A stretch of DNA of 64,000 nucleotides. It comes from Octopus vulgaris. Its lineage: Eukaryota. Position 1 is the stretch's first letter; each line of letters begins with the position of its first letter. The stretch is from contig OX597831.1 of the NCBI GenBank assembly GCA_951406725.2, positions 9,486,001 to 9,550,000 on the forward strand, in the 5' to 3' direction. The notes under the pieces were generated by a model. The model was not told where the DNA came from, did no database searches, and saw only the letters and a list, made by a program, of their open reading frames with translations. The translations under genes were made by a program, and so were the position numbers. Positions 2,135 to 63,921 of this stretch are shown here, piece by piece.

Positions 2135-2345
2135 AGACGGCAAGTTAGCGGCAATGTTAGCGTGCCGGATACAATGCTTAGCGGCATTGTGTCCGTCTTT
2201 ACGTTCGGAGTTCAAATGTTTCCGAGGGCGACTTCGCCTTTCCTCTATTCAGGGTCGATACAATAAGTAGTGACTAAACACTGGGGGAGCTCTAATCGAC
2301 TTATCCTCGAAATTGCTGGCCTTGTGCCAAAATTTCAAACCGTTA
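2135..2345 (+). mobile_element. Older family A SINE with the alternative tail (...GAAATTGCTGGCCTTGTGCCAAAATTTCAAACC)
   Basis: GTTAGCGTGCCGG...GAGTTCAAATG...GACTTCGCCTTTCCTCTATTCAGGGTCGATA..TAAGTA is a diverged version of the family A body. Confidence 0.7.
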
Positions 2346-2494
2346 TTATTTTCATGATCATCATCGTCATCATTACAATCATTAAAGGCAAACTAGCAGA
2401 ATTACTAGCAGCCCCAGGAAGCTGATTTATGCCATTTCTTGCAGCCGTTTACATTCTGGGTTCAAATTTCACCGAGGACGACTTTGACGTTTGT

Positions 2495-3165
2495 AAACTA
2501 AGTTTCCTCCAACAAGGTGAAACTGTTTTGGAAAGAATAGTTACACAAGTTCAGACCTGGGTATTCTACTTTAGGCCAGAAGCCAAAATGCAGAGTACGA
2601 AGTGGAAACACCCGGATTCTCTGGCGAAAAGTTCATTGAAGAGTCAAACTTCAGCCGAAAATGTGCTGCTAACTGTTGTTTCGGACACAAAACTGCGGAA
2701 TGAGTTTACAGTTACGAGTGTACTGTATAGTAAAATGTTGGTCAACAAACGGAAACCAGGCGATTTGTATGAAACGTCGATGTCTGTTGTAAAAGCAAGT
2801 GTTATTACAGCACGAAAATGCATGGCAACATACAGCGGAGAACACCACTGACACCAATGAAGAATCGGGTTTTGAAATGCTGGGTCACTCTACACATAGT
2901 CTCGATCGCGTCCCTTTCCACTGTCACCACGTTGGACCACTGAAACATCTTTTATAAGGTTGCCGATTTGCTACGGGCGAAGTACATAGGAAGCGGTGCA
3001 TAACTGGGTGTGCGACGACCCGAAAAACGTCTTTTCTGATGGAATAAGCAAACTTCTACACCGTTGAAGAAATTGCATCGAAATGGACGGGGACCACGAA
3101 GAAAGATGCTTTTGTTAAGGAAATTACACAAAGAAGAATGCGTATAATCTTTAATTTACACTCGT
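2495..3165 (+). pseudogene. Decayed mariner (Tc1/mariner) transposase fragment
   Basis: VLERIVTQVQTWVFYFRPEAKMQSTKWKHPDS..KSQTSAENVLLTV matches the mariner FLxRIVTGDETW...W...SAGKVMLTVFW block; the downstream HSTHSLDRVP..HHVGPLK is a decayed HPPYSPDLAPSD.HLFGPLK. Confidence 0.8.
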
Positions 3166-3445: not shown

Positions 3446-3476
3446 GTAGTACGGATCGCGGTATTAAAATTGTTAA

Positions 3477-3898
3477 AAGGCGGCAAGCTGGCAGAATCGT
3501 TAGCACGCCGGGCGAAATGCTAAGCGGTATTTCGTCTGCCGTTACGTTCCGAGTTCAAATTCCGCTGAGGTCGACTTTGCTTTTCATTTTTTCGGGGTCG
3601 ATTAAATAAGTACCAGTTACGCACTGGGGTAAATATGATCGACTTAATCCGTTTGTCTGTCCTTGTTCGTCCACTCTGTGTTTAGCCCTTTGTGGGTAGT
3701 AAAGAAATAGGTATTTCGTCTGCCACTACGTTGTGAGTTCAAATTCCGCCGAGGTCGACTTTGCTTTTCATCCTTTCGGGGTCGATTAAATAAGTACCAG
3801 TTACACACTGTGGTGAGGTCGATATAATAGACTTAATCCGTGTGTCTGTCCTTGTTCGTCCCCTCTGTGTTTAACTCCTTGTGGGTAGTAAAAAAATA
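3477..3898 (+). mobile_element. Young Meta-domain SINE (family A), head plus two tandem body units, 15-bp TSD
   Basis: tRNA-like head (TGGCAGAATCG...GAGTTCAAATTCC); central GTCGACTTTGC.TTTCATCCTTTCGGGGTCGAT..AATAAGTACCAG resembles the MetaSINE domain; TSD GGTATTAAAATTGTT at 3460-3474 and 3899-3913. Confidence 0.9.
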
Positions 3899-4429
3899 GG
3901 TATTAAAATTGTTGAACGTGTGTAGAAACTTCAGAGTAGTTTTAAGTGTTAATACATATAGGAAGAATAACAGATACACCAGTATCAATAAGAACGGAAC
4001 TCATAAAAGAGAAGGAGAAGAAGAGAGCGAGTGAGCGAAAGAAAAAGAGAGAGAGAGAGAAAGCGAGTGATAGAGTGAATGAGGAAAAAGAGTAAAGATG
4101 CAAAGAATGAAAGTGGGTAAAGAATGATATTTTGTTCTCGACAAATGTTTTCAAAGAATAGAAGTACATGTTTTAGTATCGGAACAAATTAACTCCAGTT
4201 CATTGGTTACCCGTTCTGCAGATCGGCGCTTGGTGAAGCCTGTAGCGTTGCCGATTCCCATACGGTCAAAGAGTAGTAATATACTAGTGTTTGCAAAACA
4301 TAGATTAGCTTCTGTGACAAGTATCCTAAAAATATTCGCCCAAAATACACACGGAGACTTACGTACGTAGAGGAAGACGTAAAACATACTAGCGCACAAG
4401 CACAAACACATACGCACACGTACAGCAAT

Positions 4430-5495: not shown

Positions 5496-5982
5496 TGAGT
5501 GAGAGGGCTGTGCATGCCATCAAAATGACACTGGGGTAAAATATACGAAGCCTAGTATACCCATCATTACTACCCGTCTGATAAGGGTTCACTAGGCACA
5601 AGCATCACAACCATATGTGCGCGACATGGTGATCTCATATCAAGTTAAACAGCGCATGACCTTGTGAGTGGGGTTCAGACTTTCCTTCAGGTCGAGTACC
5701 CCAACCGCTCAAATGGTTTCCAAATAAGGGTTGTTTAAGGGTATTGAGCCAAACACTCATGCTTGCAGAGTTTTGTTATTCAAGCCCCAAAGAATTCTTC
5801 TCGATACATATATATGATGATTCCCTACTACCTCTGCTCAACTGGTTATGGTCAAACAATTGACAAGCAAATTTGTGGTATTGAGTAGAAAATTGGCTGT
5901 AACCCATCTTTTATATCAAGGCAAACATTTACATAACACAATCAGCCAGTTAAGATCAAAGGCCATGAGAGTCAGTGCCTTG
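5496..5982 (-). mobile_element. (TAA)n-embedded non-coding interspersed element (family T), internally deleted copy
   Basis: Colinear with 23240-23797; flanked by (TTA)n on both sides. Strand inferred from the (TAA)n tail. Confidence 0.8.
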
Positions 5983-8015: not shown

Positions 8016-8152
8016 CAGCACAAAGAACAAAGAGAAATGTTTTAATATAATTTGTTTATTTGTTTCTCCTAACATCTGTGTGGTCATGTTTACAACAACA
8101 ACAGCTACAACACGTTCAGCAACTCTAACTAATAACTATTGTATACAAACTA

Positions 8153-8577
8153 GGCGCAGGAGTGGCTGTGTGGTAAGTAGCTTTCTTACCAACCACATGG
8201 TTCCGGGTTCAGTCCCATTGCGTGGCATCTTGGGCAAGTGTTTTCTGCTATAGCCTTGGGCCGACCAATGCTTTGTGAGTGGATTTTGTAGACGGAAACT
8301 GAAAGAAGCCTGTCGTATATATGTATATATATATATATGTATGTGTGTGTATATGTTTGTGTGTCTGTGTTTCTCCCCCTACCATCGCTTGACAACCGAT
8401 GCTGGTGTGTTTACGTCCCCGTCACTTAGCGATTCGGCAAAAAGAGACCGATAGAATAAGTACTGGGCTTACAAAGAATCCCGTCCCGGGGTCGATTTGC
8501 TCGACTAAAGGTGGTGCTCAAGCATGGCCTCAGTCAAATGACTGAAACACGTAAAAGAGTAAAAGAGTAAAGAGTAA
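8153..8577 (+). mobile_element. Full-length tRNA-derived SINE (family B) with internal (TA/TG)n and (GTAAAAGA)n tail
   Basis: GGCGCAGGAGTGGCTGTGTGGTAAG...GGTTCAGTCCC; more than ten related copies in the window. Confidence 0.9.
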
Positions 8578-10056: not shown

Positions 10057-10283
10057 ACTCTCTTTTACTCTTTTACTTGTTTCAGTCATTTGACTGCGGC
10101 CATGTTGGAGCACCGCCTTTAGTCGAGCAAATCGACCCCGGGACTTATTCTTTGTAAGCCCAGTATTTACTCTATTGGTCTCTTTTGCCGAATCGCAAAG
10201 TGACGGGGACGTAAACACACCAGCATCGGTTGTCAAGCAATGCAAGGGGGACAAACACAGACACACAAACATATACACACACA

Positions 10284-10323
<40 letters not shown>

Positions 10324-10488
10324 TACGACGGGCTTCTTTCAGTTTCCGTCTACCAAATCCACTCACAAGGCATTGGTCGGCCCGGGGCTATAGCAAAAGA
10401 CACTTGCCCAAGATGCCACGCAGTCGGACTGAACCCGGAACCATGTGGTTGGTTAGCAAGATACTTACCATACAGCCACTCCTGCGCC
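10057..10488 (-). mobile_element. Family B SINE, full length, young
   Basis: Near-identical to the reverse complement of 8153-8577. Confidence 0.9.
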
Positions 10489-11010
10489 TATGGTATGGAT
10501 ATGCAATGAGCGGAAGACAATATTTCTCCTATTCTTATAGCTATATTTAACAATAAAATACAAGTAACAAAGAGAGACACGAAGGAAGGAAATATTAAAG
10601 GAACTTGGTGCGCCGTCTCCTGAAAATCCGGTAGGAATGGACTTACTTCACATGCATGAAATCTTAGAAGAGCGAAGCATACAGTAGCCGCATAGCGATC
10701 ATATACCATGCTTACATGCCAGACATTGATTCCAGTTTGAACACTGAGATTTCCTGAATTATTCCACATCAATTATTTCTTCATAAAAACAAGATTATCG
10801 AAAGAGGTATATGATGCTTAAGTTATGTGCAGAAATTGCACGACAAGAAAAAAATATAGGTGCCGTATGAAACGGAAGGTATCCATTGAAGTCATAAATC
10901 AAAATAGATCGCTGCAATTTCCATGTTAATGGCATTATGTGAAAAAAGACAGAATGCAAATAATTTGGAATTGGCCTACATCTATATGCAAATGCATGTA
11001 AAAGTCTACA

Positions 11011-11286: not shown

Positions 11287-11319
11287 GATAATAAATATGT
11301 GTGTGTGTGTACACACATA

Positions 11320-11482
11320 GGCGCAGGAGTGGCTGTGTGGTAAGTAGCTTGCGAACCAACCACATGGTTCAGGGTTCAGTCCCACTGCGTGGCATCTTGG
11401 GCAAGTGTCTTTTGCTATAGCCCCGGGCCAACCAATGCCTTGTGAGTGGATTTGATAGACGGAAACTGAAAGAATCCTGTCG
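11320..11482 (+). mobile_element. Family B SINE, 5' half
   Basis: GGCGCAGGAGTGGCTGTGTGG...GGAAACTGAAAGAA, ending at the internal microsatellite position. Confidence 0.85.
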
Positions 11483-13039: not shown

Positions 13040-13510
13040 GCTAAACCCCGTTGAACGTCTTGTATCTTTATATAACCATGATCTTATATAAGCCGCAAAA
13101 CCAGAAATCTCTTTGGGACTGGGGGAGGTCGAGAATATTGATCCCAGAGCTCTGTTGGTGGTTATTTTATTGATCTCGAAAAGGATGAAAAGTAAAGTCG
13201 ACCTCCCTGTCATTAGAACTCAGAACATAGAGAACCGAATTAAATGCTGTGATGCATTTTGTCCGGTGTGTTAACGAATGTGCAGTTTGCATACCTTGTA
13301 ACAATAAAAAATGACTACCATATTGTATATGATATTGGTTTCCAGTTTTGGCCCAAGACCAGCAATTGTGACGTCATCGATGTCGGTGCTCTCTTGGTAA
13401 TTGTTTTATCGACTCTCAAAGGATGAAAGTCGATCTCGACGGAATTTGAACTCAGAACGTAAAAAAATGGACGAAATTTAGCTCAGAATTGTATTCGGCG
13501 TGCTAACGAC
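13040..13510 (-). mobile_element. Cluster of old family A SINE remnants
   Basis: Two occurrences of AAAGGATGAAA..AAAGTCGA..CTC..GG(A)ATTTGAACTCAGAAC. Confidence 0.6.
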
Positions 13511-13558
13511 ACTAGCAACTCACCGCTGTCGTACTGTTTATTATATTAATACGAAAGA

Positions 13559-13968
13559 AAGGCGGCGAACTGGCAGAATCGTTAGCATGCCGGGCGAAGT
13601 GCTTAGCGGTATTTCGTCTTCCGTTACGTCCTGAGTTAAAATTCCGCCGAGGTCGACTTTGCCTTTTATCCTCTCGGGGTCGATTAAATAAGTACCAGTT
13701 AAGCACTGGGGCGGATATAATCGACTTAATCCGTTTGTCTGTCCTTGTTTGTACTCTCTGTGTTTAGCCCCCCCCCCCCTTGTGGGTAGTAAAAAATAGG
13801 TATTTCGTCTGCCGCTACGTTGTGAGTTCAAATTCCGCCGAGGTCGACTTTGCCTGTCATCCTTTCGAGGTCGATAAATCAAGTACCAGTTGCGTACTGT
13901 GGTAGATCTAATCAACTGGCCCCCTCCCCCAAAGTTTCAGGCAATGTGCCTAGAATAGAAAAGAATAT
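13559..13968 (+). mobile_element. Family A SINE dimer with two different tails
   Basis: Head plus unit 1 (Tx1-like tail) to ~13798; unit 2 starts GGTATTTCG at 13799 and ends CCCTCCCCCAAAGTTTCAGGCAATGTGCCTAGAATAGAAAAGAATA. Confidence 0.85.
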
Positions 13969-14654
13969 TAATACGAGAGAGTTTGTCTTTCTTGCTTCAG
14001 GGCCACTTTTACTCTGTACGGTTATGTTCAGCACGGCGAGACCGAAGGCCTTCATTGATGTTTGTTTGATGTTCTCCCAATAATTGCTGGACTGAAACAA
14101 AGAACACATTGGATAGGTAGACTCATTCTGAAAAACAAAGAGGGTATCCATGGGCCCGACGTCCGTAGACACAGTTCACTTCTATAATGACTGGTATATG
14201 AACAAAAGAAAAAAAACATTATGCCAGTTTGCAATTTTGTTTGTAAGTTCAGTTTGTGATTATTAGGCTGAACGTTCGAATTCCGGACCAGCACCATGTT
14301 GTGATCTTGAACCAGATATTTCATTTCACGTTGCTCTGACTTTGGCGTAAAAGATTTAAGATCTCAGAATATGAAGAAAGTCTAATATTAGTTACAATTC
14401 TGTTGACTTCAAAAATCATTCCGGCTCCGTTCCACCTGTACTTATCATTTCGCTTTCAGTATATGTCCGAACGGCTTGGAATGAGTAGCAATACTGCTTT
14501 ATCGTTTATTTGAAAAAAAATGGAAGATCGAAACATCCAGTGTATTGTAACGTAATGCAAAATATTTGTTTGTGTGTGTGTATGTATGTGTGTGTTTGTG
14601 TGTGTATGTGTGGCTATGTGTATACATATACAATCATATATAAATAAGTAGATG

Positions 14655-15790
14655 GATTGGGTTGACCAAAACATCCCTTCGATTTTCGTTGACTGTAAAC
14701 TTCAAAATCTCAAATAAGTAGCTAATTTCATTTTACTCCTTGCACTTGAAACGTCAAAGTATTTGAAAGCGAATTGGAGACAAAATAGGTTGTTTCTTTT
14801 GTGTTTGTGGTCACTCTGAATATGAAGAACCAAACTGAAATTTATAGATTCCACATGTTTTTATTTTATATATTTTCAAAAAGGCAAGAAAGTTACACAA
14901 AACTGGAGGAAGATACGAAGTGTGCTCGCACATGTTGTGCTTATAAATCGGGTGTGCAAGAAGTCCTTCCAAGATTTCTTTCAGGAAGTTTTTCGGTTGA
15001 AGTTGCATGTCACTTTAGCCGGCTAATTGAGATTAACTGCGTTAACAATTCCTGTTATAAAAGCAAGATGATTGCAGATAATCTCCAAATATCCTACTTG
15101 AATGTTGAAATCTATCGGCATTAACTTGGTTACCTCAGCAGGCTTAGTATTTGAGTCTCATATCAACTTAATTAGACTAACCTCGCGTAACGGATTTCCG
15201 TCTGCGATTGGCTGCAGAAACATAAAGAAAACCATACTTTTTTTAATAGAATTATGGAAAGGGACAAAATATGGCTATCTACAACAATGTGAAGGCAGTC
15301 GATTGTGAAGAATACGCAGCGAACGATCACTAACAATCTCCAAAACAGGATTTTCTTCTGAAGAAGGTAATGATTTGGTGGGATTGCGAGAGCGTTACCT
15401 TTTACGAGTTTCTTCTCGCAGACCGGACCATCTGGCCCTTATTAAAAGCAGCGATCCCCCAGAAGCGTCTCGCAGTTGCTAATCATAATGATGTTATCTT
15501 TTATCCTGATATTGTCAGACCGCACACTTCTTTGCAGACTCAGCAACAGTCACTTCTGTTTGACTAGATGGTTTTTTTGCACCCGCCATATTTCCTCCTG
15601 TTTTGTTATCATCAAAATTCATTGAATGGAAGGACCCTCGACTCCTAGGAGGATCTAAAAATTCACCTGGGAGAGGTATATGTCTGTAAAGACAGGAAAT
15701 TCCTTAAGTAGGGGAAATGAATGTGCCTAGAAGATATTGGAACAAATTATATTATTTTTAAATTAAATCGCTTTGTGTTTTAAAGCACCT
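14655..15790 (+). pseudogene. Decayed mariner transposon (Mos1-like transposase relic)
   Basis: N-terminal LFYFQKGK; KKVMIWWDCESVTFYEFL, IFYPDIVRPHTS (HDNARPH) and LHPPY motifs; TIR-like ATTGGGTTGACCAAAA at the left end; many stops. Confidence 0.8.
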
Positions 15791-16791: not shown

Positions 16792-16806
16792 CTATCTATC
16801 TATCTG

Positions 16807-16887
<81 letters not shown>
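16792..16887. repeat. (TATC)n microsatellite
   Basis: Direct inspection. Confidence 0.95.
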
Positions 16888-17997
16888 AAGGGCGAATGGC
16901 ACCGCGAGTGTCGCGTTGCTCTCAAGCAACTCTGACGTCCCGGATCGACCGTCATTGACTCCAACACAACCCAAGCATTCTATAGGGGATTAGTGGAGGG
17001 GAGGTACGACGACGAGCTCGAGGCGAACCTGGACGTCGACGAGGAATACCTGACCCGCCTGTTCAGGACGACTTTCGGGCCAGGGCCCATGGACAACTTC
17101 TAGAGACCCCTGTCCCGGCAGTACTACCGAGAAGCGCTACCCGTTCGGGATAAGCTCTACAGACACGGCTCAAGAAACACGGGGCCGTCTTGCCCGAGAT
17201 ACGGTCAGAGCGACGAAACCGTTCTGCATTTACTCGTGCAGTGTCCAACGATTTCTGACCTGTGGGCTTATGTTGAACAACTAGTGTCACGTGTGGGACG
17301 AGTCGGTTTATCAGCCGAGTCTATCGTCTATATTGTCACGCCTCCTTCCTTCAAACGGGAAGGAAGAGCTATTTTCATCATCCTTGTGGCTATGGCGAAA
17401 AAATGTATCTGGTGGACGCGTCTGAAAGGATTGGAGACAAACACTTTGCTCTCTGGTCAATCTCTCATCAACTTCTTCAAGTATCACTTGAAAAGGAAAG
17501 TGAGAGTAGAGAGGCAAGTTTTGTCTAGCGAATGTTTTTAAAAAAGATGGGTGAATGTATCAAGGATGGCATGTATGAATGACGAGACCACCTTGAGCAT
17601 AATCCTATGAACCCGGATTTTGAAAACAGAGGATTACCCACTTGCAAACAAATGTGGTAACATGTAACAATATTGACCGAGGTTACCGTGGTCATTTCCG
17701 TAGGCTTTTCTTCCCACGGATAAACCTTATCTGCTTCCCCCTTTACACCGTACATCATGACACTGTGATACACGATCCCTATTGATCGTTTTTTTTCTTT
17801 TTCCCCTTTTTCATTGTTTTTCCTTTTTTCTTTTTTCTCTTCTTTTGATTCTTTTCCTTTTCTTTCTTATTTTATTCTTTCTCTTTTACGATCCCTTTTG
17901 ATCGAAAACCTACCCCACTTTTTTTTTCCAAAAAAAGAAAGGCTCTACTTTGTAATCTGTCCCGTCTGTGTGCAGCCCTGTGTGGCTAATAAAGAAA
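16888..17997 (+). mobile_element. 5'-truncated L1/Tx1-clade LINE: ORF2 C-terminus plus 3'UTR, inserted in (TATC)n
   Basis: ALPVRDKLYRHG...CPRxG..DETVLHLLVQCPTISDLW (L1-type C-terminal CCHC region) ...AKKCIWWTR; in-frame stops; pyrimidine-rich 3'UTR ending GGCTAATAAAGAAA. Confidence 0.85.
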
Positions 17998-18001
17998 CAT
18001 A

Positions 18002-18002
18002 C

Positions 18003-18085
<83 letters not shown>

Positions 18086-20191: not shown

Positions 20192-20410
20192 AAGGCAGGG
20201 AGCTGACACAATCGTTAGCACACCGGACGCAATACTTAGCGACACTTCGTCCGTATTTATGTTCTGTGTTCAAATTTCGCCGAGATCAGCTCTCCTTTGC
20301 ATAATTTCGAGGTCAATAAAAGAAATATTAATTGAGCAATGGAATCGGTGTAATCGACTCGACCTTCCCCTCTAAATTGCTGGCCTTGCGCCAAAATTTG
20401 AAATCAATAT
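20192..20410 (+). mobile_element. Old family A SINE with alternative tail
   Basis: AAGGCAGGGAGCTG...AATCGTTAGCAC...GTTCAAATT...GTAATCGAC...AAATTGCTGGCCTTGCGCCAAAATTTGAAATC. Confidence 0.7.
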
Positions 20411-22740: not shown

Positions 22741-23105
22741 CTGAATTTACCTCAGGTCGAGCAGCCCTTCCTACTGAAAATGTCCTTGGATAACGATTGT
22801 TCAAGAATGATGAACGAAACAATCTTATTTCAAGGAGTGAACCAAACTCCCACAAATCCTTCTCGACACATGGCTACGCTGCTCCTCCTATATTCCTGCT
22901 CGGGATCAGAGATACACATATCATCAGCCACCGAGGGACATGCTGAACCGCTTAAGGTCAAGTAATTGACAGACGAATCTGCTGTATCGGGCAGAAAATC
23001 TGTTGGAGCAGAGCTTTGAGACAAAGACAAAACATACACATGTTAGAACTTCCAAACAGCTAAGAACAGAAGCCAATGAGAACCACTGATTGGTATTTCA
23101 GGGCA
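22741..23105 (-). mobile_element. Family T element, older partial copy
   Basis: Colinear with 23425-23797 (e.g. GATCAGAGAT.CACATATCATCAGCCAC). Confidence 0.75.
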
Positions 23106-23239: not shown

Positions 23240-23794
23240 TGAGTGAGAGAGCAGTGCATGCCATCATAGTAACACTGGGGTAAAATTTACGAAGCCCAAT
23301 ATACCCATCATGACTACCTGTCTGATAAGGGTACACCAGGCACATGCATCACAACCATATGTGTGCGACATCGTGATCTAATGTCAAGATAAACAGCACA
23401 TGACCTTGCAGGTGGGGCCCACTTAGAATTTTCTTCAGGTCGGGTAATCCATCCTGCTCAAAAGGTCCCTGAATAAGGGTTGTTTAAGGATGTTGAACAA
23501 AACACCCATGTTTCCAGAGGTGAATTATTCAAACCCCAAAGAATCCCTCTCAACACGTGGCTATGATGCTCCCCCACTACTTCTGCTCGTGATCAGAGAT
23601 GCACATATCATCAGCCACTAAGGGATATGCTCAACTGGTTAAGGTCAAACAACTGACAAGCAAATCTGTGATATTGAACAGCATATTTGCTGTAGCCCAT
23701 CTTTTATACCAAGACAAAACAACGTACATGATAACACTTCCAACCAGTTAAGATCAGAAGCCATGAGAGCCACTGCCTGGTACTGCATCAGGGC

Positions 23795-23797
<3 letters not shown>
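23240..23797 (-). mobile_element. Family T element, apparently full length (~560 bp), between (TTA)n arrays
   Basis: Three copies in the window, same left boundary TGAGTGAGAG as 5496; no tRNA head and no credible ORF. Confidence 0.85.
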
Positions 23798-25009: not shown

Positions 25010-25275
25010 AAGTAAAGACCCCATTTGGTCCTGAATAGCTATGGGATTGCACCTAGAAAGTTCCCCCACCTAGGTACAAGTCCAGGCAGTGTTGTTTATA
25101 GACGCCCAGCAGTCGCCCATGCATACAATCCTTTCCCTCTCCATGCCACTGATGTTATGCAAGGGAAAGGCAAAGAGGTCGATACAGCTTGGCACCAGTG
25201 ACGTCGCAAGTCATTTCAACAGTTTAATGAACTGGAGCAACATGAAGTAAAGTTTCTTGCTCAAGAACAGAACTC
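25010..25275 (-). mobile_element. SINE family F (CORE-like body), partial
   Basis: Reverse complement matches 49480-49775 (ATGCATGGGCGACTGCTGG; CTAGGTGCAATCCCAT). Confidence 0.75.
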
Positions 25276-27603: not shown

Positions 27604-27726
27604 GTCTTTGTAAGCCTGGTACTTATTCTATCGTTATCTTTGCCGAACTGCTAGGTTACGAGGACGTAAACACACCAGCATTGGTTGTCAAGCGATGTTG
27701 GGGGGCAAACTAAGATACGCAAACAT

Positions 27727-27784
<58 letters not shown>

Positions 27785-27945
27785 GACGGGTTTCTTTCAG
27801 TTTCCGTCAACTCAATGCACTCACAAGGCTTTAGTCAACCCGAGGCTATAGTAGAAGAAACTTGTTCAAGGTGCCACGCAGTGGGACTGAAACCAGACCC
27901 ATATGGTTGGTAAGCAAGCTACTTACAACACAGCCATGCCTGTGT
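27604..27945 (-). mobile_element. Family B SINE, diverged
   Basis: GTACTTATTCTATCG...TTTCAGTTTCCGTC...GTGGGACTGAA. Confidence 0.8.
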
Positions 27946-27975
27946 CTAAATATATATACATACATGCATATACAC

Positions 27976-33953: not shown

Positions 33954-34114
33954 TGTATATTTAAACACATAAGCGATATCCTTCATAGGATTCCTTTCGC
34001 GCTAGAAGGAACAGAAAAAGTCCAAAACACTATTTGAGATACAAAAATCGAAGGGAATGAAAGATAAAACATTTACCATATATCTCCTGGACCATGGTTT
34101 CTGACATTTTTTAG

Positions 34115-35725
34115 CAAATAAAATAATTTGCTAGGCGAAGTCTTCATCAACAGGTACACCTAGACCAAACATATAAGTACTAGGCAAATCCACCATGTGC
34201 CTCTTGCTTAAACATTAAAATTGTAATTTTTCTAAGGATGTGAGCATTACTTGTCAGCACAATTTTGGGGATTTCTCTGAGACATGGTTCTCCTGGGATA
34301 TTATCTAAATGTTTCAGACATCCCTTTCTTATCATACCTAGGACACCTACAATAACAAGAACAGTTCTCGTCTTAAGATTCCATATCTTTTGTACTTCAA
34401 TTTCCAGATTCTCATTTTTAATTTGTCAGATTCCTTTACAGATATATATTTATCCGTGGGAACACTTACATTTATTAGTCTACAAGTATTTTTTCTCTGC
34501 CTTTTTATGATTAGGTCTGGTTGATTTGCCTGGATCGTTCTGTCGATGTTGACTGGAAAATTCCAGATTTTTGTATTACCTTCAACGACTGGCTCAGTAA
34601 GCAAGAGTGCTGATTTTGTAGTGTTTACATATTTTCCAATGTAAGTACTCTCCTACCATATCGTGGCGATTTTTGTAGTCCTTTGGTGCCAGCACAGGAC
34701 ATCCATAGACGAAATAGTCTATTGTTTCATCAAATGTATTTCAGAATCTGCATGTAGAGTCAGAACCGTTTTGAAGAATGTTAGCCTGGTAGTTTTTGGT
34801 AAGTAAGCCTTGATCTTGTACCGCTGATATGAAACCTTCAGTCTCTGCTTTCAATCCTGAGCTCCCCAGCCCCTGATAGGATGTTGTCTTGTCTACATCA
34901 GCACTTTTGCTTTGAAGTATATACTGTCCATGCAGAGGCTTCTGGCTCCACTGTTCCTCAACTTGTTTCTTCCCGTTATTTTTTGCAGTCTGTTTGATCT
35001 GTTTTGCTTGTTTGGTGGCAATGGTATCGGGTACATAATCTAATTCAAGGTTTATAACCGAGTTCCCGAATTCACAAGCCTCCTTGACAGTTGAATAACT
35101 CCTGCTGCTTTCGTGTTTGCACACAAGTCGCAACATCCAGTTCTCTGTACTAGATAAGTATTTGTTGAGGAGGTCTTATAGCACAGTTCTACCTGCAACA
35201 TTCCTCTTCCCCCATTACTTCTAGGGCTAGAGTTAGGGTTTTGGATGGTCCATGATCTTAGATGTTAGCAGTTTTGTTTCGTCTTCCTGTTCAGGTGTTG
35301 GAGCTCTGTCAGATTCCAGTTAATGATGTTAAAACTGGATTGGATTACTGGAAGTGTCAAGATGCCAATGGCTTCGATGCGATTTTTTGAGTTGAGTTCA
35401 GCTTTTAGTATGAGTCTCACTCTCCTGTAATACTCCTCTCTTATTGTTTTCCCTCATTTCAGCATGTTGTATACCATCCCCTTCGTTTATTTATAGCTTC
35501 CTTGTGGGTGAAGCTCCTTGATGGTAGTGTCAGAATTTAATTTAAAGGAAGCTGTTTGCCTGAGCTTTCCTCTTACAAAATTTGCTTTAGCACACTTATC
35601 AAGGCCAAAATCCATCCTGATCTCACTACTGAAATCTTTAACAGTTGTTAACAGCCCTACTAGATCTTCGTCACTTCTAGCAAACAGCTTCATATCGTCC
35701 ATACAAAATAGATGGTTTACTGTAA
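34115..35725 (-). mobile_element. 5'-truncated, decayed R4/Dong-clade LINE (RT C-terminus, Zn finger, restriction-like endonuclease)
   Basis: VNHLFCMDDMKLF...MDFGLDKCA (RT); KPLHGQY...LKAETEGFISAVQDQ; CRF..ETIDY...GC...RHD; IDRTIQANQPDLII...INVSVP (PD-D/ExK RLE); frameshifts and stops throughout. Confidence 0.88.
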
Positions 35726-40231: not shown

Positions 40232-40602
40232 TTTTCTTGTTTCAGTCATTTGACTGCGGCCATGCTGGAGCACCGCCTTTAGTCGAGCAAATCGACCCCG
40301 GAACATATTCTTTGTAAGCCCAGTACTTATTCTATCGGTCTCTTTTGCCGAACCGCTAAGTGACGGGGACGTAAACACACCAGCATCGGTTGTCAGGCAA
40401 TGCTAGGGGGACAAACACAGACACACAAACACACACACACATACATATATATACATATATACGACAGGCTTCTTTCAGTTTCCGTCTACCAAATCCACTC
40501 ACAAGGCATTGGTCGGCCCGGGGCTATAGCAGAAGACACTTGCCCAAGATGCCACGCAGTGGGACTGAACCCGGAACCATGTGGTTGGTTAGCAAGCTAC
40601 TT
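40232..40602 (-). mobile_element. Family B SINE, 3' portion (split by the ORF1 element; 5' end at 42850-42888)
   Basis: Runs to ...TGGTTAGCAAGCTACTT and resumes at 42850 as TGGTTAGCAAGCTACTT-ACCACACAGCCACTCCTGCGCC. Confidence 0.92.
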
Positions 40603-41156
40603 TATTTCAAAACATTTGCCATAAAGGCAGTACACAGATTAAGTTAGCTTTGCGGGCTGGACGAGGACATTAATGAGGTGAATGATAATGAAAGAAAGAT
40701 GATAAGGATGGGAGAAGACAGAAAGCGCCCGCCGACTTTTGCTTCTCTAAAACATTGTTCTTTTTAAAAAGATTAACACAAAACGAGGTATTAAACCTCT
40801 TACAATTTTTCCAATTTTGTGCTTAGCAGTCCATTATTAATACAAAACGAGGTATTAATCCTCTTACAATTTTTCAATTTTTGGACTTAAGTCCATTACT
40901 AATAATACATATCGTCCTCGAAATAGCTTGTGCCCGCGCCCTCCACCATCAACCACGCCTCCCTCAGAACGTAGTCAAGTTCCGAGTTCGCGTCGCCCGG
41001 GACCAAGTTATAATCTTCATTGAGCTCTTTAGCCCTAGCGTCACGTCGAACGCCACGGCCTCCACAGCTACCTGCGGAGGCCATTCGGGGTCCTGTGTGA
41101 AGGCTAAAGGTGCTCCCTTGTAGTGCTCTTCCATCACTTTTTCAATATCTCCTCCT

Positions 41157-42143
41157 CTATAGAAGAGGACCAATACATTCAGTTCTTTCGTTGGCGGCAC
41201 AGTTTCCGCCAACGGTATTCCTTCTCTTGTCGGTGGCACAACCCCAACCGACGTAGTTCCGCGACATTCCGGTGCCACACTGACAGCCGGCAACGTCCCG
41301 TTTTTCTTCCTCTTTTTCTTTTTTTTTTCCCTTTTCAACTGAGGGAGGGTGCGTCTCCTCCGTGGCTGGAAGATTCGCCCTCCTCTCCTCATCCCTATTA
41401 TCCTTTGGTGAGCACCCATTGTTGCTCACCTTCCTCTTTCGGCCTCTGCTTGAGGAGTCCTCTGCTTTCTCGGCCGTTATCGTTCCCTCTTCTAGAGGGG
41501 TTTTACTTAACTGTTCCGGGATCCTATTTTGTTCCCGAGGACAGTTCTTCTTTATGTGGCCGGACTCCAAGCACCGATGACACTTAGGGGGGCGACCCTC
41601 AAGCATCACCGGGTACCTGCACCCGGCCATTTTCAAAAAATCTGGAAAAACCAGATTGGCTGATTGGGTCCACAGGGTCAAAATTGCTTTCGAGCCAACC
41701 CAAGCAGCCGCAGGAAGAACTTTTACATTGAGGAGCTTAGTTTCGCTGTCACCCAGACCCCGGCGGATAGTCTCCTCTATCCACTCGGGTTCTATGTCGG
41801 GTGGCAGTCCGCAGATCCAAGCTTTCATCAATTTCTTTTTTTTGTACGTGGGCAGGAATAAGATTTCCTTACCCTCCAAGGGTTCGCTAGCAAATTTGCA
41901 AGCCTCTTCAGGTGTGTCAAACAGCAACCACACCGTTGCATATTTGACACCCCTGGAAATGAATTTAATTGTTGGCAAATACTCCTCCAACTCCTCCTCA
42001 ATTGCCGTCTTTTCGAATAGGGCGATGGTGTCAAGTGCCTTGGAGTAGGTTCTCAACACCACCGTCCTATCTTCACGGTCCTTCAACCACTTTTTGGGTG
42101 GTATGATTTCCCACTCCAAAACTTTGTTATTTTTCATTGCCAT
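41157..42143 (-). CDS. LINE ORF1/gag-like nucleic-acid-binding protein with CCHC zinc knuckle (328 aa; C-terminus possibly frameshifted)
   Basis: Only long high-complexity ORF in the window. ICGLPPDI...GCRYPVMLEGRPPKCHRCLESGHIKKNCP (Cx2Cx4Hx4C) is the layout of L1/Tx1 ORF1 proteins; charged low-complexity tail. Confidence 0.85.
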   Translation of the reverse strand: MAMKNNKVLEWEIIPPKKWLKDREDRTVVLRTYSKALDTIALFEKTAIEEELEEYLPTIKFISRGVKYATVWLLFDTPEEACKFASEPLEGKEILFLPTYKKKKLMKAWICGLPPDIEPEWIEETIRRGLGDSETKLLNVKVLPAAAWVGSKAILTLWTQSANLVFPDFLKMAGCRYPVMLEGRPPKCHRCLESGHIKKNCPREQNRIPEQLSKTPLEEGTITAEKAEDSSSRGRKRKVSNNGCSPKDNRDEERRANLPATEETHPPSVEKGKKKEKEEEKRDVAGCQCGTGMSRNYVGWGCATDKRRNTVGGNCAANERTECIGPLL

Positions 42144-42801
42144 GTTTTTTTTTAAATATATTCAAATTAAACTCAAAAGCAGGAAGAAAAAAGTTCAAAA
42201 GTCTAAATAAATTTGATAGATTTTTGAAAAAACAAAAAGGAGAAAGCACAACAGAAGGGAAGAAATTAACGGAAAGTCGCAATAAAGAAAAAACAAAAGG
42301 GGGGGGGGGTTAAATGAAGTTCAAAAGAAAGTTAATAAACAGAAAAAACACAGCAAAAATATTCTGGCCTTGCGGTACTCCCGGCCTGGGTTGAACCTGG
42401 AACGCCGCAACTGCAACACAACCTACACAAAAATGGGTCCGAAAGGTAATCCAATAGTGGCTTATTTTTATACTTTTCTTGCGAAGTACTCTGACAAGGG
42501 AATAAATTCAACAAATCCAAACACAGCACTGGCTACCGCCAACGGTGATTTTAACAGTAACTGTATTGAATTCTGAGGATACGCCCCTCCACTGTTTTTT
42601 CTTTTTTTTTTTTTTTTTTTCAATGAACACAAAAACGGCAGCCGCCTAGCGCAGGCGAAATTGTCTCAGAGTTGGACACAACCTACTGAAATAATAATTG
42701 GCACGCAATAAATTATGCCCAACTCACAATAAACAAAATCACTTACCTCGACAACTTTCCGTTTTTGGTCTTTTTTCTTTAGTTGGAAGGATCTTGTTAC
42801 T

Positions 42802-42840
42802 CACGTCCACTCTAGCTCAACAGGAAGCAACCGACTAACT
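42802..42840 (-). promoter_or_regulatory. Putative internal Pol II promoter (Inr + DPE-like)
   Basis: Minus strand CAGTTAGTC (Inr-like, A at 42836) followed by GGACGTG at about +29, right at the element 5' end. Confidence 0.45.
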
Positions 42841-42849
42841 GCGCATGTG

Positions 42850-43318: not shown

Positions 43319-43355
<37 letters not shown>

Positions 43356-43356
43356 G

Positions 43357-43398
<42 letters not shown>

Positions 43399-43708
43399 GG
43401 AGGTGGCGAACACGTACATCGCGTCCCGCATCTGCTATCGCCTAACCGTTGTGCCTTGTTCTGACCTTTCCATCACCAAACTGGAATGCATTCTCTTCCG
43501 CTTCCCGTGGAAAGGAAGCGCTACGATGGTCAGGCGATCCGTTTGCTGCCAACACCTGTTAAAAGGAGGGATGGGCATGCCGTGGTCGATGATGCACAGA
43601 CACGCGCTGAGACTGCGACATCTCCGGCTCTACGTAGACGACGGTGAACAACTGTGGTCGCCGTTTGTGAAGCGCGCTCTTCCGCACCTCGTCTCCATGA
43701 CCGAACTG
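43399..43708 (+). mobile_element. L1/Tx1-clade ORF2 internal fragment directly after (TATC)n
   Basis: ITKLECILFRFPWKGSATMVRRSVCCQHLLKGGMGMP matches the post-RT F.F.W.G...V....C......GGLG.P motif of L1/Tx1 ORF2. Confidence 0.75.
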
Positions 43709-43779
43709 TGTATGTCTATATGTGTGTGAGTGAATTGGAAGCTTGAATTAAACTAAAGTATTAGTATGATAAGAAGGTA

Positions 43780-44095
43780 GGAGCTGGTGTGGATATGTGG
43801 TAAGAAGATTTCCTCGGCTGACCAAAACCTTGTGATTGGATTTGGTAGACGGAAACTGAAAGAAGCTCGTCGTATATATACATATGTATATGTATGTATA
43901 TGTCTATCTATGTTTGTCCCCCGCCATCCCTTGACACCTGATATTGGGGTGTTTACGTATGCGTAACCTATCGGTTCGGCAAAGAGACCGATAGAATAAG
44001 TACTGGACTTACAAAGAATAAGTCATGGGGTCTATTTGCTCGACTAAAGGCTGTGCTCCAGTATGGCCACAATCAAATGACTGACACAAGTAAAA
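43780..44095 (+). mobile_element. Family B SINE, diverged
   Basis: GGTAGACGGAAACTGAAAGAAGC...AAAGAGACCGATAGAATAAGTACT...TCGACTAAAGGC. Confidence 0.85.
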
Positions 44096-46095: not shown

Positions 46096-46898
46096 TTTTA
46101 CAATCACCAACATCACCACTACGAATATGATGCAGGAAAGCACCAACGATGTCCCTAACATCAACCTCCGCAATCACTATGAAACAGGAGAACCTCTTCG
46201 ATATCACTTCATCTCAACGAAACTGTAACTAATTCTCCCTCAAACCTGGTAGAAATAGAAAAAATGCCTTAGATAGAGTAGTTCTGGTAATATTAAGACA
46301 TAGGGATGGTCACAACAGGACGTCTTGTCCTGGCATTGGGTTAAATAACAACAACAACAATATGCCTTGAGGGAGTGAGACACCCTCGGTGCGATTGTCC
46401 GAGCAATCTGAAGAATCAGTGGAATGGCTTTCCAATCAGAATCTACAGATATTTATATAATTCATTTATTGCGTAATATGTATTGCGGTTATAACAAATC
46501 TGAATAGGAGGGATGGTCCAAATTGGAATCACTTTGTTTGTGTACGATCCCGGTTGGTGTGCCGTGGGTAAAAGCTATAATAAAGAAAATATGTCATACC
46601 AATAAGATTCATGAGAGCTAATATTAATCGCAAGGACGATGATGATGATAAAGATAATAATAATGATGCTGGTGATGATGGTGTCGATGATGGTGAGAAG
46701 AAGGAGTAGGAAGACGAAGACATCTTCGCCATCAACATAAGCGTCTCAAATGACAACGTCACAACCTTGAAGATGAAGTTTATAGCCTGTTGCCAACGCT
46801 TCCCACACCACATCGCCAACATGTCATCGAACCACCATTCCCACTTCGTCACACCAACACCCTCACTATTACAACCACCACCTCCAGCAGCAACAGCA

Positions 46899-51182: not shown

Positions 51183-51298
51183 ATGTTTAACCTATCTCTC
51201 TCCGACGATGGAATAATCCGTGTATGGAATCTTCGTTCGACACGATGTTTCTATAGCTGGGATATCTTAGAAACGGCTGCCAGGGACTATCTAAACAT
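51183..51298 (+). ncRNA. Degenerate (probably inactive) type I hammerhead ribozyme
   Basis: TCTCT-CCGACGA-TGGAATA...TATCTTA-GAAAC-GGCT-GCC-AGGGA with outer ATGTTTA/TAAACAT pairing; two core T>C changes. Confidence 0.45.
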
Positions 51299-60213: not shown

Positions 60214-60755
60214 AAGGCGGTGAGCTGGCAGAAACGTTAGCCCGCCGGGCGAAATGCGTAGACGTATTTCGTCTGTCGTTACGTTGTGAGTTCAAATTCC
60301 GCCGAGGTCGACTTTGCCTTTCATCCTTTCGGGGTCGATAAGTTAAGTACCAGTTACGCACTGGGGTCGATGTAATCGACTTAATACCTATGTCTGTCCT
60401 TGTTTGTCCCCCTCTGTGTTTAGCCCCTTGTGGGTAGTAAAGAAATACGTATTTCGTCTGCCGTTACGATTTGAGTTCAAATTCCACCGAGGTTGAGTTT
60501 GCCTTCGGGGTCAATTAAATAAGTACCAGTTACGCACTGAAGCCGATATAATCGACTTAATCCGTTTGTCTGTCCTTGTTTGTCCTCTCTGTGTTTAGCC
60601 TCTTGTGGGTGGTAAAGAAATAGGTATTTCGTCTGCCGCTACGTTCTGAGTTCAAATTCCGCCGAGGTCGACTTTTGCCTTTCATCCTTTCGGGGTCGTT
60701 TGTCTGTCCTTGTTTGTCTCTTCTACGTTTAACCCCTTGTTGACAGTAAAGTAAT
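60214..60755 (+). mobile_element. Family A SINE, head plus three tandem body units
   Basis: GTATTTCGTCTG restarts at ~60263, ~60448 and ~60623; units 2 and 3 carry internal deletions. Confidence 0.9.
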
Positions 60756-61595
60756 ATATAAGAATTCCGTTCCTGCTTTATACTGTTATCTCCATCTCCT
60801 TCCTCACTCCTCTCATCCCGTCCGGAGTTCTCTCTTCACTGAATTTCTTTATTAAGCATATTCATTCTTAACACTCCTGAGTAAATTCAGACGCAACGTA
60901 TCCTGGTCACTGTAGAGTATGCCATAAGGGAATTAATAGAATTAGTACACTAGATACAATATTTATGAAACGAGAAATATTTTATAGAGACTGATCAATT
61001 GATTTAACAAATTGAAAACTTATCGACGAAGATAACGTATTTTTAATCTCACATTTTGCCAGTTAGAGTATATACGTCTGACTAGTTAGTGTGTGTTTTA
61101 CTAAGTTCAGCACAACTGAGTAACTAATTTGAACAAAACGTCAGTGGTTGCACATATTTTCCTCAGAACTGATGCTCGATGTCAATGCTTGTAAGCAGAT
61201 GTAGTTCTAGACAGACTAATTCAGTTTTATGCGAGTTTGTCTATTCAACAAATAATTAGATGACAGCTGTGAGTTACTTGCCTTACAGATGACGTGCGTG
61301 TACACGGCTGTAATCGTCTTATATTTATTGAAATAATATTTTATGTATGATATTGGAAACTGAACAACTATCAGTGGTTACCAAAGCACAGAAACAACTG
61401 TTGTAGTTTGTGATTGAATACTACTCGTTCTATGTTCTTGTTTTATAAATGTTTATAAACATTCTGCGTACACTATCGGATTCGCACATGTATATCCAGT
61501 ATGATGACATATGATAGCCAATAAACGCATAGGAGCTTTGAAATGCACGTTGTAAGGTTATTTCCTAGATGATATATTATATGCATACATACTAT

Positions 61596-61816
61596 AAGGC
61601 GGCGAGCTGGCAGAAACGTTAGCACGCTTAGCAGTATTTCGTCTGCTGCTTCATTCTGAGATGAAATTCCGCCGAGGTCGACTGTGTCTTTCATCCTTTC
61701 GGGGTCGATAAATAAAGTACCAGTTACGCACTGGGGTCGATGTAATCGACTTAATTCCTTTGTCTGTCCTTGTTTGTCCCCTCTATGTTTAGCCCCTTGT
61801 GGCCAATAAAGAAATA
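61596..61816 (+). mobile_element. Family A SINE monomer with Tx1-like tail
   Basis: AAGGCGGCGAGCTGGCAGAAACGTTAGC...GTGGCCAATAAAGAAAT; possible 14-bp TSD TATATGCATACATA (61578-61591 / 61817-61830). Confidence 0.9.
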
Positions 61817-63064: not shown

Positions 63065-63297
63065 CGAGCTGGCAGAAACGTTAGCACGCCGGGCGAAATG
63101 CTTAGCAGTATTTCGTCTGCCGTTACGTTCTGAGTTCAAATTCCGCCGAGATCGACTTTGCCTTTCATCCTTTCGGGGTCGATAAGTTAAGTACCAGTTA
63201 CGCACTGGGGTCGATATAATCGACTTAATCCCTTTGTCTATCCTTATTTGTCTTCTCTGTGTTTAGCCTCTTGTGAGTAGTAAAGAAATAGGTATTT
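63065..63297 (+). mobile_element. Family A SINE monomer ending in the first bases of a second unit (GGTATTT)
   Basis: Near-identical to unit 1 of the copy at 60214. Confidence 0.9.
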
Positions 63298-63921
63298 AAA
63301 GAATGACTGTAATATGAAGTGTCATTAAATGTCTTTTCCAGGTAGGGATATTTAGTTAGACATGAACTGGACCAATTCAGGCCTAAACCTTTCTAGAAAC
63401 AAAGAGAGTACGACGTTTCGATATAAAAAATCCCCATAGATAAGCCAATTTCAGGGTTTTTTGTTAATATATATATATATGCCTAAGTGGAAAATATTCC
63501 ATCGATTCAAAAAGAGTTTGAGGACTGCGAATCTATCATAAGTCCATGACAATCGATATGGATTTTATATCTTTAGCACATGTGTAATTATAGTGTTGTA
63601 TTGAAAAGAAACAGATTTCACGTTTAGAAAAGAACCCTGTCTGGAGCAGGGCAACCATCGACGAAAATAAGACGAAGTGACGAACGGGATTGGGGTTGGC
63701 AAATATTTAAGAGGAAGGACAAAATATGAGGGAGGAATATCATCTGCATATAACACAAAAAAAAGCATTGGGATTAACAGTAATACTATTTATCCTTTCT
63801 ACTAAAGGCACAAGGCCTGAAATTTCAGGGGAGGGAGATAGTCGATTACAGAGACTGAAGTACTTAACTAGCACTTATTATATCAGTTGACCCCGGCGGA
63901 ATTTCCACTCACAACGAAACC

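What the first reader, a model, noticed from the sequence alone, without database searches (positions are those of the whole stretch)
17956..18001. Young SINE shares its 3' tail with the Tx1-clade LINE
Seen: LINE end TCTGTCCCGTCTGTGTGCAGCCCTGTGTGGCTAATAAAGAAACATA versus SINE end (61773-61818) TTTGTCCCCTCTATGTTTAGCCCCTTGTGGCCAATAAAGAAATATA, 37/46 identical without gaps. Both keep a GCC-N-GGC mini-hairpin just before AATAAAGAAA. Established: shared 3' tails mark SINE/LINE partnerships, mostly for L2, CR1 and RTE, whereas mammalian L1 recognises poly(A). Inference: a stringent, tail-recognising L1/Tx1 partner for a MetaSINE. The 14-15-bp TSDs of the SINE fit APE-type LINE insertion.
Basis: partly seen in the sequence, partly recalled or inferred. 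Interest (0 to 1): 0.72.

Follow-up and report, generated by a model that had tools for sequence, protein, structure and literature searches.

The report
Octopus SINE borrows an L1/Tx1 tail
A short, abundant jumping element in an octopus-type genome ends in nearly the same 44 bases as a Tx1-like long element, which suggests it is copied by that kind of element, a pairing so far described mainly in plants and algae, but only one long-element end could be examined.

Summary
The match is real: 37/46 (35/44 without two target-site bases), at the 3' end of both elements and above every shuffle. The LINE is a 1.1-kb 5'-truncated L1-group copy in an octopod genome, flanked on both sides by (TATC)n. 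A second fragment of the same clade also abuts (TATC)n, which points to a site-specific Tx1-type family; no named Tx1 reference could be tested. The tail (A) is shared by 8 SINE monomers. It is closer to the LINE end than to the older tails (B1, B2) on the same SINE head and body, as expected from a tail swap. A 4-bp hairpin covaries across all tail types, the LINE and an ORF1-only element.

Corrections: the GCC-N6-GGC register occurs in only 1 of 8 A tails. The MetaSINE label is not supported. TSD length does not separate tail A from tail B2. None of 4 A-ended SINEs sits in (TATC)n, so this exact family may not be the mobiliser. No second LINE end was available, so a chimera is not excluded. 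Verdict: probable tail-sharing SINE and Tx1-group pair; new variant of a known kind.

The parts
16889..18001 (+). 5'-truncated L1-group (probably Tx1-type) LINE copy
   Evidence: ORF2 homology starts right after the 5' (TATC)n run and the element ends at the 3' run
16891..17610 (+). ORF2 C-terminal remnant with zf-RVT; 3 premature in-frame stops (16933, 17101, 17539), no frameshift, natural stop at 17608
   Evidence: PF13966, E 6e-6, 27.2 bits against cut-off 27.5; 57-63% identity to RT + zf-RVT proteins
17611..17999 (+). LINE 3' UTR, 389 nt, with a 90% pyrimidine tract at 17784-17890
17956..17999 (+). Shared 3' tail on the LINE: hairpin AGCC-CTGTGT-GGCT at 17974-17987, AATAAA at 17988-17993, no poly(A)
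16793..16888 (.). (TATC)n microsatellite at the LINE 5' junction
18002..18083 (.). (TATC)n microsatellite at the LINE 3' junction
61596..61816 (+). tRNA-headed SINE monomer with tail A (61773-61816); TSD copies at 61578-61591 and 61817-61830
3478..3898 (+). SINE quasi-dimer, two A tails (3666-3709, 3855-3898); 15-bp TSD at 3460-3474 and 3899-3913
13560..13964 (+). SINE quasi-dimer with internal tail A and terminal tail B2; 16-bp TSD with 1 mismatch (13543-13558, 13965-13980)
60215..60756 (+). SINE quasi-trimer, three A tails; no TSD found
63065..63290 (+). 5'-clipped SINE monomer with tail A; no TSD found
43397..43709 (+). Second ORF2 fragment of the same LINE clade; 5' end abuts (TATC)n at 43319-43398, 3' end lost
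   Evidence: (67% identity to P0004 aa 564-666)
40601..42843 (-). ORF1-only element (RRM-like + CCHC ORF at 41157-42143) inserted into the head of another SINE; 15-bp exact TSD, about 21-23 bp allowing a 2-nt indel; ends in hairpin TGCC-TTTAT-GGCA (40617-40629) and AATAAA
2135..2345 (+). Older copy of the same SINE head and body with tail B1 (also 20192-20405 + and 13320-13530 -)
63790..63920 (-). Partial copy of the same SINE body with tail B2

Best explanation
An octopod tRNA-headed SINE family replaced its 3' end with the last ~45 nt of an L1-group, probably Tx1-type, LINE. This was probably by template switching during reverse transcription (inferred). The resulting tail-A subfamily is copied in trans by ORF2 protein of that LINE group, which recognises a small hairpin (4-bp GC-rich stem, 5-6-nt CUUGU-like loop) near the RNA 3' end rather than poly(A). 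ORF2 then primes reverse transcription at a nicked target and leaves a 14-15-bp TSD (inferred from known SINE/LINE pairs). The mobiliser is more likely a sister family with loose target choice than the (TATC)n-bound family seen here. Alternatively the same enzyme picks targets by pairing of the RNA 3' end with the DNA. Shown: the shared, co-terminal sequence; three tail types on one SINE body; L1-group identity; (TATC)n adjacency; TSDs. Inferred: direction of transfer, Tx1 clade, hairpin function, trans-mobilisation.
For: Co-terminal 35/44 match above all shuffles. The LINE tail differs at 5 of 25 columns invariant in all 8 SINE A tails, while left-out SINE tails differ at 0-1 (7 of 8) or 4 (1 of 8), so it does not behave like a typical SINE copy. 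Tail A scores 24-26 against the LINE end but only 5-12 against the five B tails of its own family; B tails score 5-9 against the LINE. A-type bodies are 85-93% identical to each other, B-type bodies 54-68%, so tail A is the newer acquisition. The LINE is one uninterrupted insert between two (TATC)n runs, with the tail 345 nt after the natural ORF2 stop. The LINE and SINE 61596 tails fold into the same interrupted hairpin (9 of 10 pairs shared), and only 1 of 9 differences falls on the 20 paired positions (p=0.023). Across 15 tails the 4-bp stem is 88% paired against 61% in shuffles, with two-sided changes in 3 of 4 pairs. An independent ORF1-only element ends in a weakly similar hairpin that is closer to the LINE than to the SINE. 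TSDs of 14 and 15 bp sit in the modal range for L1-clade elements (13-15 bp; RTE 10-12 bp; PMC6007223 passages). No poly(A) follows the LINE or any of 4 A-ended SINEs.
Against: Only one LINE 3' end was available: two scans of genome contigs and one plasmid search found no other copy. 0 of 4 A-ended SINE elements lie in (TATC)n, whereas 2 of 2 LINE fragments abut it; SINEU shares its Tx1 partner's target (PMC4494074). The hairpin is also in tails B1 and B2, which do not match the LINE, so it is not diagnostic of this LINE. No tail folds better than shuffles (z from -0.58 to +0.42 for 9 of 9), and there is no two-sided change between the LINE and SINE 61596. The B2-ended dimer has an equally long TSD, 16 bp. 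The ORF1-element similarity is weak: 19-63 of 2000 shuffles reach it and 104 of 2000. The most decayed SINE tail (60713) is as far from the SINE consensus as the LINE tail is, 11 differences each. The covariation test uses about five independent lineages, segments I anchored on the loop, and a structure derived from these same sequences.
Confidence: 0.62

Rival explanations
1. The tail came from the SINE. A short SINE 3' fragment was fused to this one LINE copy, or was captured by the LINE family through template switching or 3' transduction, so the LINE end says nothing about what mobilises the SINE.
For: Tail-A monomers outnumber the LINE end 8 to 1 in the window, and the family readily forms chimeras: dimers, a trimer, and an A + B2 hybrid. 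One decayed SINE tail is as divergent as the LINE tail. No second LINE end could be examined.
Against: No SINE body, TSD or residual LINE terminus is seen at the junction. The LINE tail breaks 5 of 25 SINE-invariant columns. Tail A is not a sequence derivative of the older SINE tails, so it needs an outside source. An ORF1-only element ends in a similar motif that is closer to the LINE than to the SINE (weak).
Confidence: 0.17
2. Tail A is Tx1-derived but is a passenger. The SINE is mobilised by another LINE (RTE or Dong/R4) or by relaxed recognition, through the generic hairpin or an A/T-rich end that the B tails also have.
For: The hairpin is common to A, B1 and B2. The B2-ended dimer carries tail A internally and has a similar TSD. 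SINE targets do not share the LINE's (TATC)n preference. RTE and Dong-R4 families are recently active in O. vulgaris (PMC13282606 Table 1).
Against: 4 of 5 A-type elements end in tail A. TSDs of 14-15 bp are above the RTE mode of 10-12 bp. The 3' end of the one other LINE remnant in the window (34.1-34.2 kb, minus strand) matches none of the 10 tails tested (p>=0.12). L1-Tx1 is also recently active in O. vulgaris: 13 families, 421 insertions.
Confidence: 0.19
3. Chance or low-complexity similarity between two (TGTC)/(TG)-rich ends that both carry AATAAA.
For: Both tails are TG-rich and the window is rich in microsatellites (12,100 of 64,000 bases masked).
Against: 0 of 500 and 0 of 2000 dinucleotide-preserving shuffles reach the score, and the match is at the exact end of both elements.
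Confidence: 0.02

Closest known systems
Maize/sorghum ZmSINE2 and ZmSINE3 with LINE1-1_ZM, and Chlamydomonas SINEX-3_CR with L1-1_CR (PMC3472496, part 1 of 3 read; PMC3747384 passages and Table 1 extracts)
   Same: tRNA-headed SINE sharing about 50 nt of 3' end with an L1-clade LINE, with a hairpin that shows compensatory changes; read as stringent recognition.
   Different: Those are plant and algal L1 lineages ending in (A)n or (T)n. This is an animal, probably Tx1-type LINE with no homopolymer tail. The 2012 survey found only 3 L1-tailed SINEs among 58 pairs; the Table 1 rows I saw list no Tx1 partner and no cephalopod.
Crocodilian SINEU with Tx1-Mar (PMC4494074, parts 1-4 of 5 read)
   Same: SINE inferred to be mobilised by Tx1-clade LINEs.
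   Different: SINEU has U1/U2 heads and poly(A) tails, no LINE sharing the SINEU-1 3' end was found, and the link rests on a shared target. Here the tail is shared and the target is not.
Kibi (TC)n, Koshi (TTC)n and crocodilian (TTCC)n/(TTTC)n Tx1 families (PMC4494074; PMC3812793 passages)
   Same: L1-group LINE found inside microsatellites.
   Different: The target here is (TATC)n, which is not in the lists I saw. The evidence is two fragments only, and relatedness to Kibi or Koshi could not be tested.
MetaSINEs, including cuttlefish SepiaSINE2 (PMC4824008 section 9 and supplement parts 1 and 3)
   Same: tRNA head, conserved body and exchangeable tails; survival by tail swapping as proposed there.
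   Different: The body here does not resemble the bivalve Meta domain. The Meta consensus and SepiaSINE2 are in a figure that could not be read.
HAL1 (half-L1) ORF1-only elements (PMC5753468 passage)
   Same: The 40601-42843 element encodes only an ORF1-like protein and has a TSD.
   Different: It is in an octopod, is inserted into a SINE head, and ends in a hairpin and AATAAA without poly(A). Its parent LINE was not identified.

Membership tests
SINE/LINE shared-tail pair | 3' ends of SINE and LINE homologous and co-terminal | tested here: met
   35/44 (37/46), best alignment of the whole elements, 0 of 2000 shuffles
SINE/LINE shared-tail pair | Tail present in the LINE family consensus, not in one copy only | not testable with these tools
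   No eukaryotic genome on hand; genome-contig scans and plasmid search empty; second fragment lacks its 3' end
SINE/LINE shared-tail pair | Conserved stem-loop with compensatory changes | tested here: inconclusive
   Covariation across 15 tails and substitutions avoiding pairs, but no two-sided change between LINE and SINE 61596, no significant folding z-score, and the hairpin is shared with B tails
SINE/LINE shared-tail pair | Shared insertion signature (target, TSD) | tested here: inconclusive
   Target differs: 0 of 4 SINEs against 2 of 2 LINE fragments in (TATC)n. The LINE TSD cannot be resolved inside the repeat; SINE TSDs are 14-16 bp
SINE/LINE shared-tail pair | Trans-mobilisation depends on the tail | not testable with these tools
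   Needs a retrotransposition assay
L1 group (L1 + Tx1) LINE | ORF2 with APE endonuclease, RT and C-terminal zf-RVT; RT closest to L1 | tested here: met
   zf-RVT in the copy; relatives carry PF03372 + PF00078 + PF13966; PDB best hit for relative P0004 is L1 ORF2 at 174 bits against R2 at 88. The endonuclease and RT themselves are not in the truncated copy
Tx1 clade | RT phylogeny groups with named Tx1, Kibi, Koshi or Keno | not testable with these tools
   Hits were almost all unnamed. The tree shows only that both fragments group with an Argonauta protein, 100/100
Tx1 clade | Sequence-specific insertion (among APE LINEs only Tx1 and R1, PMC6007223) | tested here: inconclusive
   2 of 2 fragments abut (TATC)n in the same orientation; such runs are 0.59% of the window and 2 of 3 loci are occupied; n is small
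MetaSINE | 66-bp Meta domain directly after the tRNA head | tested here: not met
   By eye against BivaMeta-SINE1 and BivaMD-SINE1; motif search gave 3 hits, none in SINE copies, chance 2.8. The published consensus and SepiaSINE2 could not be read
tRNA-derived SINE (SINE2) | tRNA-like head with A and B boxes, interspersed copies, TSDs | tested here: inconclusive
   A- and B-box-like motifs by eye (box consensus recalled), 11 head-bearing copies aligned, TSDs in 3 of 6; ARAGORN found no tRNA and none of the 150 listed of 168 Rfam matches was a tRNA
CORE-SINE | CORE domain (CCTTGGG-type block after the head) | tested here: not met
   By eye against BivaCORE-SINE1 and 2: absent from this family, though a CTTGGGCAAG block is present in the window's other SINE family

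The most novel reading that the evidence does not exclude
A major octopus SINE family has survived by serially borrowing 3' ends from Tx1-group LINEs while keeping one 4-bp CUUGU-loop hairpin as the ORF2 recognition signal. This would be an animal case of stringent, poly(A)-independent RNA recognition in the L1 group. One partner is a (TATC)n-targeting Tx1 family whose specificity comes partly from pairing of the RNA 3' end with the target, so the SINE it carries lands elsewhere: the 3478-3898 TSD begins with the same GGTATT that follows internal A tails.
Probability: 0.3. Interest if true: 0.72.

Novelty: new variant of a known kind. Interest (0 to 1): 0.5.

Why it matters
Shared SINE/LINE tails are textbook, but L1-group examples are rare: 3 of 58 pairs in a 2012 survey, all in plants or algae. 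The one Tx1-linked SINE I found in print has poly(A) and no shared tail. An animal pair would bear on the proposal that stringent RNA recognition is ancestral in the L1 group and was relaxed in mammals, and it gives a 44-nt element with natural variants to test. It would also name a candidate engine for part of the octopus SINE expansion. SINEs are 11.6% of the O. vulgaris genome, and 893 of 900 recently active SINE families are unclassified in the 2026 annotation. The claim is cheap to settle with a public octopus assembly.

Tried and rejected
Independent LINE 3' ends: a protein-based scan of genome contigs gave 16 pattern matches and none confirmed; a tail-pattern scan gave 0; plasmids gave no match. 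Folding stability as evidence: rejected, no significant z-score in 9 of 9 tails. The hairpin-motif scan (10 hits at 9 loci, 8 at element ends, shuffle mean 2.6 and maximum 6) was designed after seeing the tails and is not counted as a test. Tail A as an evolved tail B: considered because both have a CTTGT loop, but alignment scores are far below A versus LINE. The other LINE remnant at 34.2-35.6 kb as partner: its end matches no tail. ARAGORN and Rfam gave nothing relevant (the listed Rfam hits are microsatellite-driven miRNA matches below cut-off). Pfam on 58 of 72 screened open frames found no further RT. Literature: searches found no report of a SINE sharing a tail with a Tx1 LINE and none of a (TATC)n-targeting LINE (one search listed 25 of 43, one search listed 25 of 32). 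Not available: Repbase, Dfam, SINEBase sequences, the SINEU supplement, Albertin 2015. Ohshima and Okada 1994 and 2005 and Kojima and Fujiwara 2004 were seen only as citations. The octopus SINE, and possibly this pairing, may be recorded there.

Full report
Observation. The two 46-mers are present as quoted and are 37/46 identical. The last two SINE bases belong to the downstream TSD copy, so the element-level match is 35/44. Slid without gaps over both strands of the window, the LINE 46-mer's best non-self matches are seven SINE tails (30-37/46); the best unrelated site scores 27, and 500 shuffles never exceed 30. An eighth tail with a C-run expansion is recovered by alignment. The best local alignment between the whole LINE fragment and the whole SINE lies at both 3' ends, score 48 against a shuffle maximum of 34 in 2000.

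Host. Named relatives of window proteins come from Argonauta hians (through relative P0004), Octopus sinensis and O. bimaculoides (a partial match). The window is therefore octopod.

The LINE. It is a 1.1-kb 5'-truncated copy (16889-18001). It holds the last 239 codons of ORF2 with three premature stops and no frameshift, a zf-RVT domain just under the Pfam cut-off, a 389-nt 3' UTR with a pyrimidine tract, and the tail, with no poly(A). Relatives at 57-63% identity carry RT and zf-RVT. More distant full-length ones add an APE endonuclease and are 1143-1161 aa for the 18 checked. The nearest solved structure to P0004 is human L1 ORF2, 174 bits against 88 for R2. The copy is flanked by (TATC)n on both sides. 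A second ORF2 fragment (43397-43709) falls in the same clade (100/100) and also starts directly after (TATC)n in the same orientation. Such runs cover 0.59% of the window, at three loci, two of them occupied. Among APE-type LINEs only Tx1 and R1 are site-specific (PMC6007223 passage), and Tx1 families target (TC)n, (TTC)n, (TTCC)n and (TTTC)n (PMC4494074). Tx1 is therefore the likely clade, but this is inference: no named Tx1 sequence could be put in the tree.

The SINE. One head and body carry three tail types. Tail A occurs in 8 monomers of 5 elements, often as quasi-dimers whose second unit starts inside the head. A-type bodies are 85-93% identical to each other (10 pairs); B-type bodies are 54-68% identical (15 pairs). 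Four of the 5 A-type elements end in tail A and one ends in B2. TSDs were found in 3 of 6 elements examined (14 exact, 15 exact, 16 with one mismatch). A match of 14 or more arises in 1.1% of 3000 random flank pairs, and in 0.1% outside tandem repeats. These lengths fit the L1-clade mode of 13-15 bp better than the RTE mode of 10-12 bp, but the B2-ended element has one too. The body does not resemble the Meta domain of the bivalve MetaSINEs printed in the supplement of PMC4824008 (by eye; motif test) or their CORE domains. The published Meta consensus could not be read. The MetaSINE label should be dropped until it is tested against that consensus.

Direction of transfer. Tail A scores 24-26 against the LINE end and 5-12 against five B tails; B tails score 5-9 against the LINE. 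A younger subfamily with a tail unlike its ancestors' and like a LINE end is what a tail swap predicts (PMC4824008 section 9). The LINE tail breaks 5 of 25 columns invariant in all eight SINE tails, against 0-1 for seven left-out SINE tails and 4 for the most decayed one. This leans against a SINE fragment stuck to the LINE but does not exclude it. A 2.2-kb ORF1-only element (40601-42843, minus) has a TSD and an RRM-like + CCHC protein (that this is the L1/Tx1 ORF1 type is recalled, not tested). It ends in a related hairpin and AATAAA. Its similarity to the LINE end is weak (19-63 of 2000 shuffles, 104 of 2000) and its similarity to the SINE is not significant.

The hairpin. The GCC-N6-GGC register is limited to the LINE and SINE 61596. 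These two fold alike (9 of 10 pairs), and their differences avoid paired sites (1 of 9 on 20 of 44 positions, p=0.023), but they show no two-sided change, and no tail beats shuffles in folding energy. Across 15 tails of all types, a 4-bp stem around a CTTGT-like loop is 88% paired (shuffles 61%, 0 of 500; slid controls 27-47%), with two-sided changes in 3 of 4 pairs. In that 5-nt-loop register the LINE and SINE 61596 each have one mismatch. The caveats are about five independent lineages, loop-anchored segments and a structure taken from the same sequences. The hairpin looks conserved but is not specific to this LINE.

Main tension. None of the 4 A-ended SINEs is in (TATC)n, whereas SINEU shares its Tx1 partner's target. 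One reading is that a sister family is the mobiliser; O. vulgaris has 80 L1-Tx1 families, 13 of them recently active. The other is that target choice depends on pairing of the RNA 3' end: the TSD of the 3478-3898 dimer starts with the GGTATT that follows internal A tails. Both readings are inference.

Comparison and novelty. L1-clade tail pairs are known from maize/sorghum and Chlamydomonas, 3 of 58 pairs. Tx1 mobilisation of a SINE is known from SINEU, without a shared tail. Ten searches found no tail-sharing Tx1 pair and no (TATC)n-targeting LINE, but Repbase, Dfam, SINEBase sequences and the older octopus SINE papers could not be consulted. What I saw of each paper: PMC4494074 parts 1-4 of 5; PMC13282606 parts 1-2 of 3 and supplement hits; PMC3472496 part 1 of 3; PMC5786205 part 2 of 5, passages and supplement hits; PMC4824008 passages, section 9 and supplement parts 1 and 3 of 4; passages only for PMC11481361, PMC4758252, PMC3531059, PMC3747384, PMC11203168, PMC8967140, PMC3812793, PMC5753468 and PMC6007223.

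Verdict. Observation confirmed; interpretation partly supported. Probable tail-sharing pair between a SINE and a Tx1-group LINE (0.62). New variant of a known kind; interest 0.5, limited by a single LINE end and an untested clade assignment.

Noticed in passing
window 16793-18083 and 43319-43709: Both L1/Tx1 ORF2 fragments start directly after (TATC)n in the same orientation; 2 of 3 (TATC)n loci in the window are occupied. Possibly an undescribed (TATC)n-targeting Tx1 family. The two fragments also cover adjacent, non-overlapping parts of ORF2 (P0004 aa 564-666 and 677-912).
   Followed up: partly
window 40601-42843 (-): ORF1-only (HAL1-like) element with an intact 328-aa RRM-like + CCHC ORF, 74% identical to O. 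sinensis LOC115225585 over residues 20-215. It is inserted into the head of another SINE with a TSD of about 21-23 bp and ends in a hairpin and AATAAA without poly(A).
   Followed up: partly
window 3478-3898, 13560-13964, 60215-60756: The SINE forms quasi-dimers and a trimer whose later units start at GGTATTTCGTC inside the head, the 3' arm of a long hairpin between the A- and B-box-like motifs. Two elements end exactly at that junction.
   Followed up: partly
window 2135-2345, 20192-20405, 13320-13530 (-), 13917-13964, 63790-63920 (-), 57095-57272 (-): Older copies of the same SINE carry tails B1 and B2, related to each other and keeping the CTTGT-loop hairpin with different stems; source LINE unknown.
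   Followed up: partly
window 8140-8549, 10078-10492, 11318-11481, 27606-27948, 40239-40602, 43812-44088: A second abundant SINE family with a CORE-like block and an internal (CA/TA) microsatellite. By eye, its 3' half shares a block with the body of the first family.
   Followed up: no
window 34100-35600 (-): Decayed 3' part of another LINE. The protein motifs recall the R4/Dong clade (recalled; no Pfam hit). Its end matches none of the SINE tails.
   Followed up: partly
window 15175-15700 (+) and 2426-2851 (+): Mariner transposase remnants: Pfam Transposase_1 below cut-off at 15334-15564; the second by recalled motif only.
   Followed up: no
window 51096-51311 (+): Short frame with weak WD40/beta-propeller Pfam matches below cut-off; possibly a host exon.
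   Followed up: no
protein P0005: A close relative of the octopod LINE ORF2 is labelled as a Herbaspirillum MAG protein, probably animal DNA in a bacterial bin.
   Followed up: no
window 5497-5980 with 23241-23778; 22743-23105 with 23426-23795; 3-224 with 46886-47089; 25016-25233 with 49557-49772: Other two-copy repeats of unknown class.
   Followed up: no
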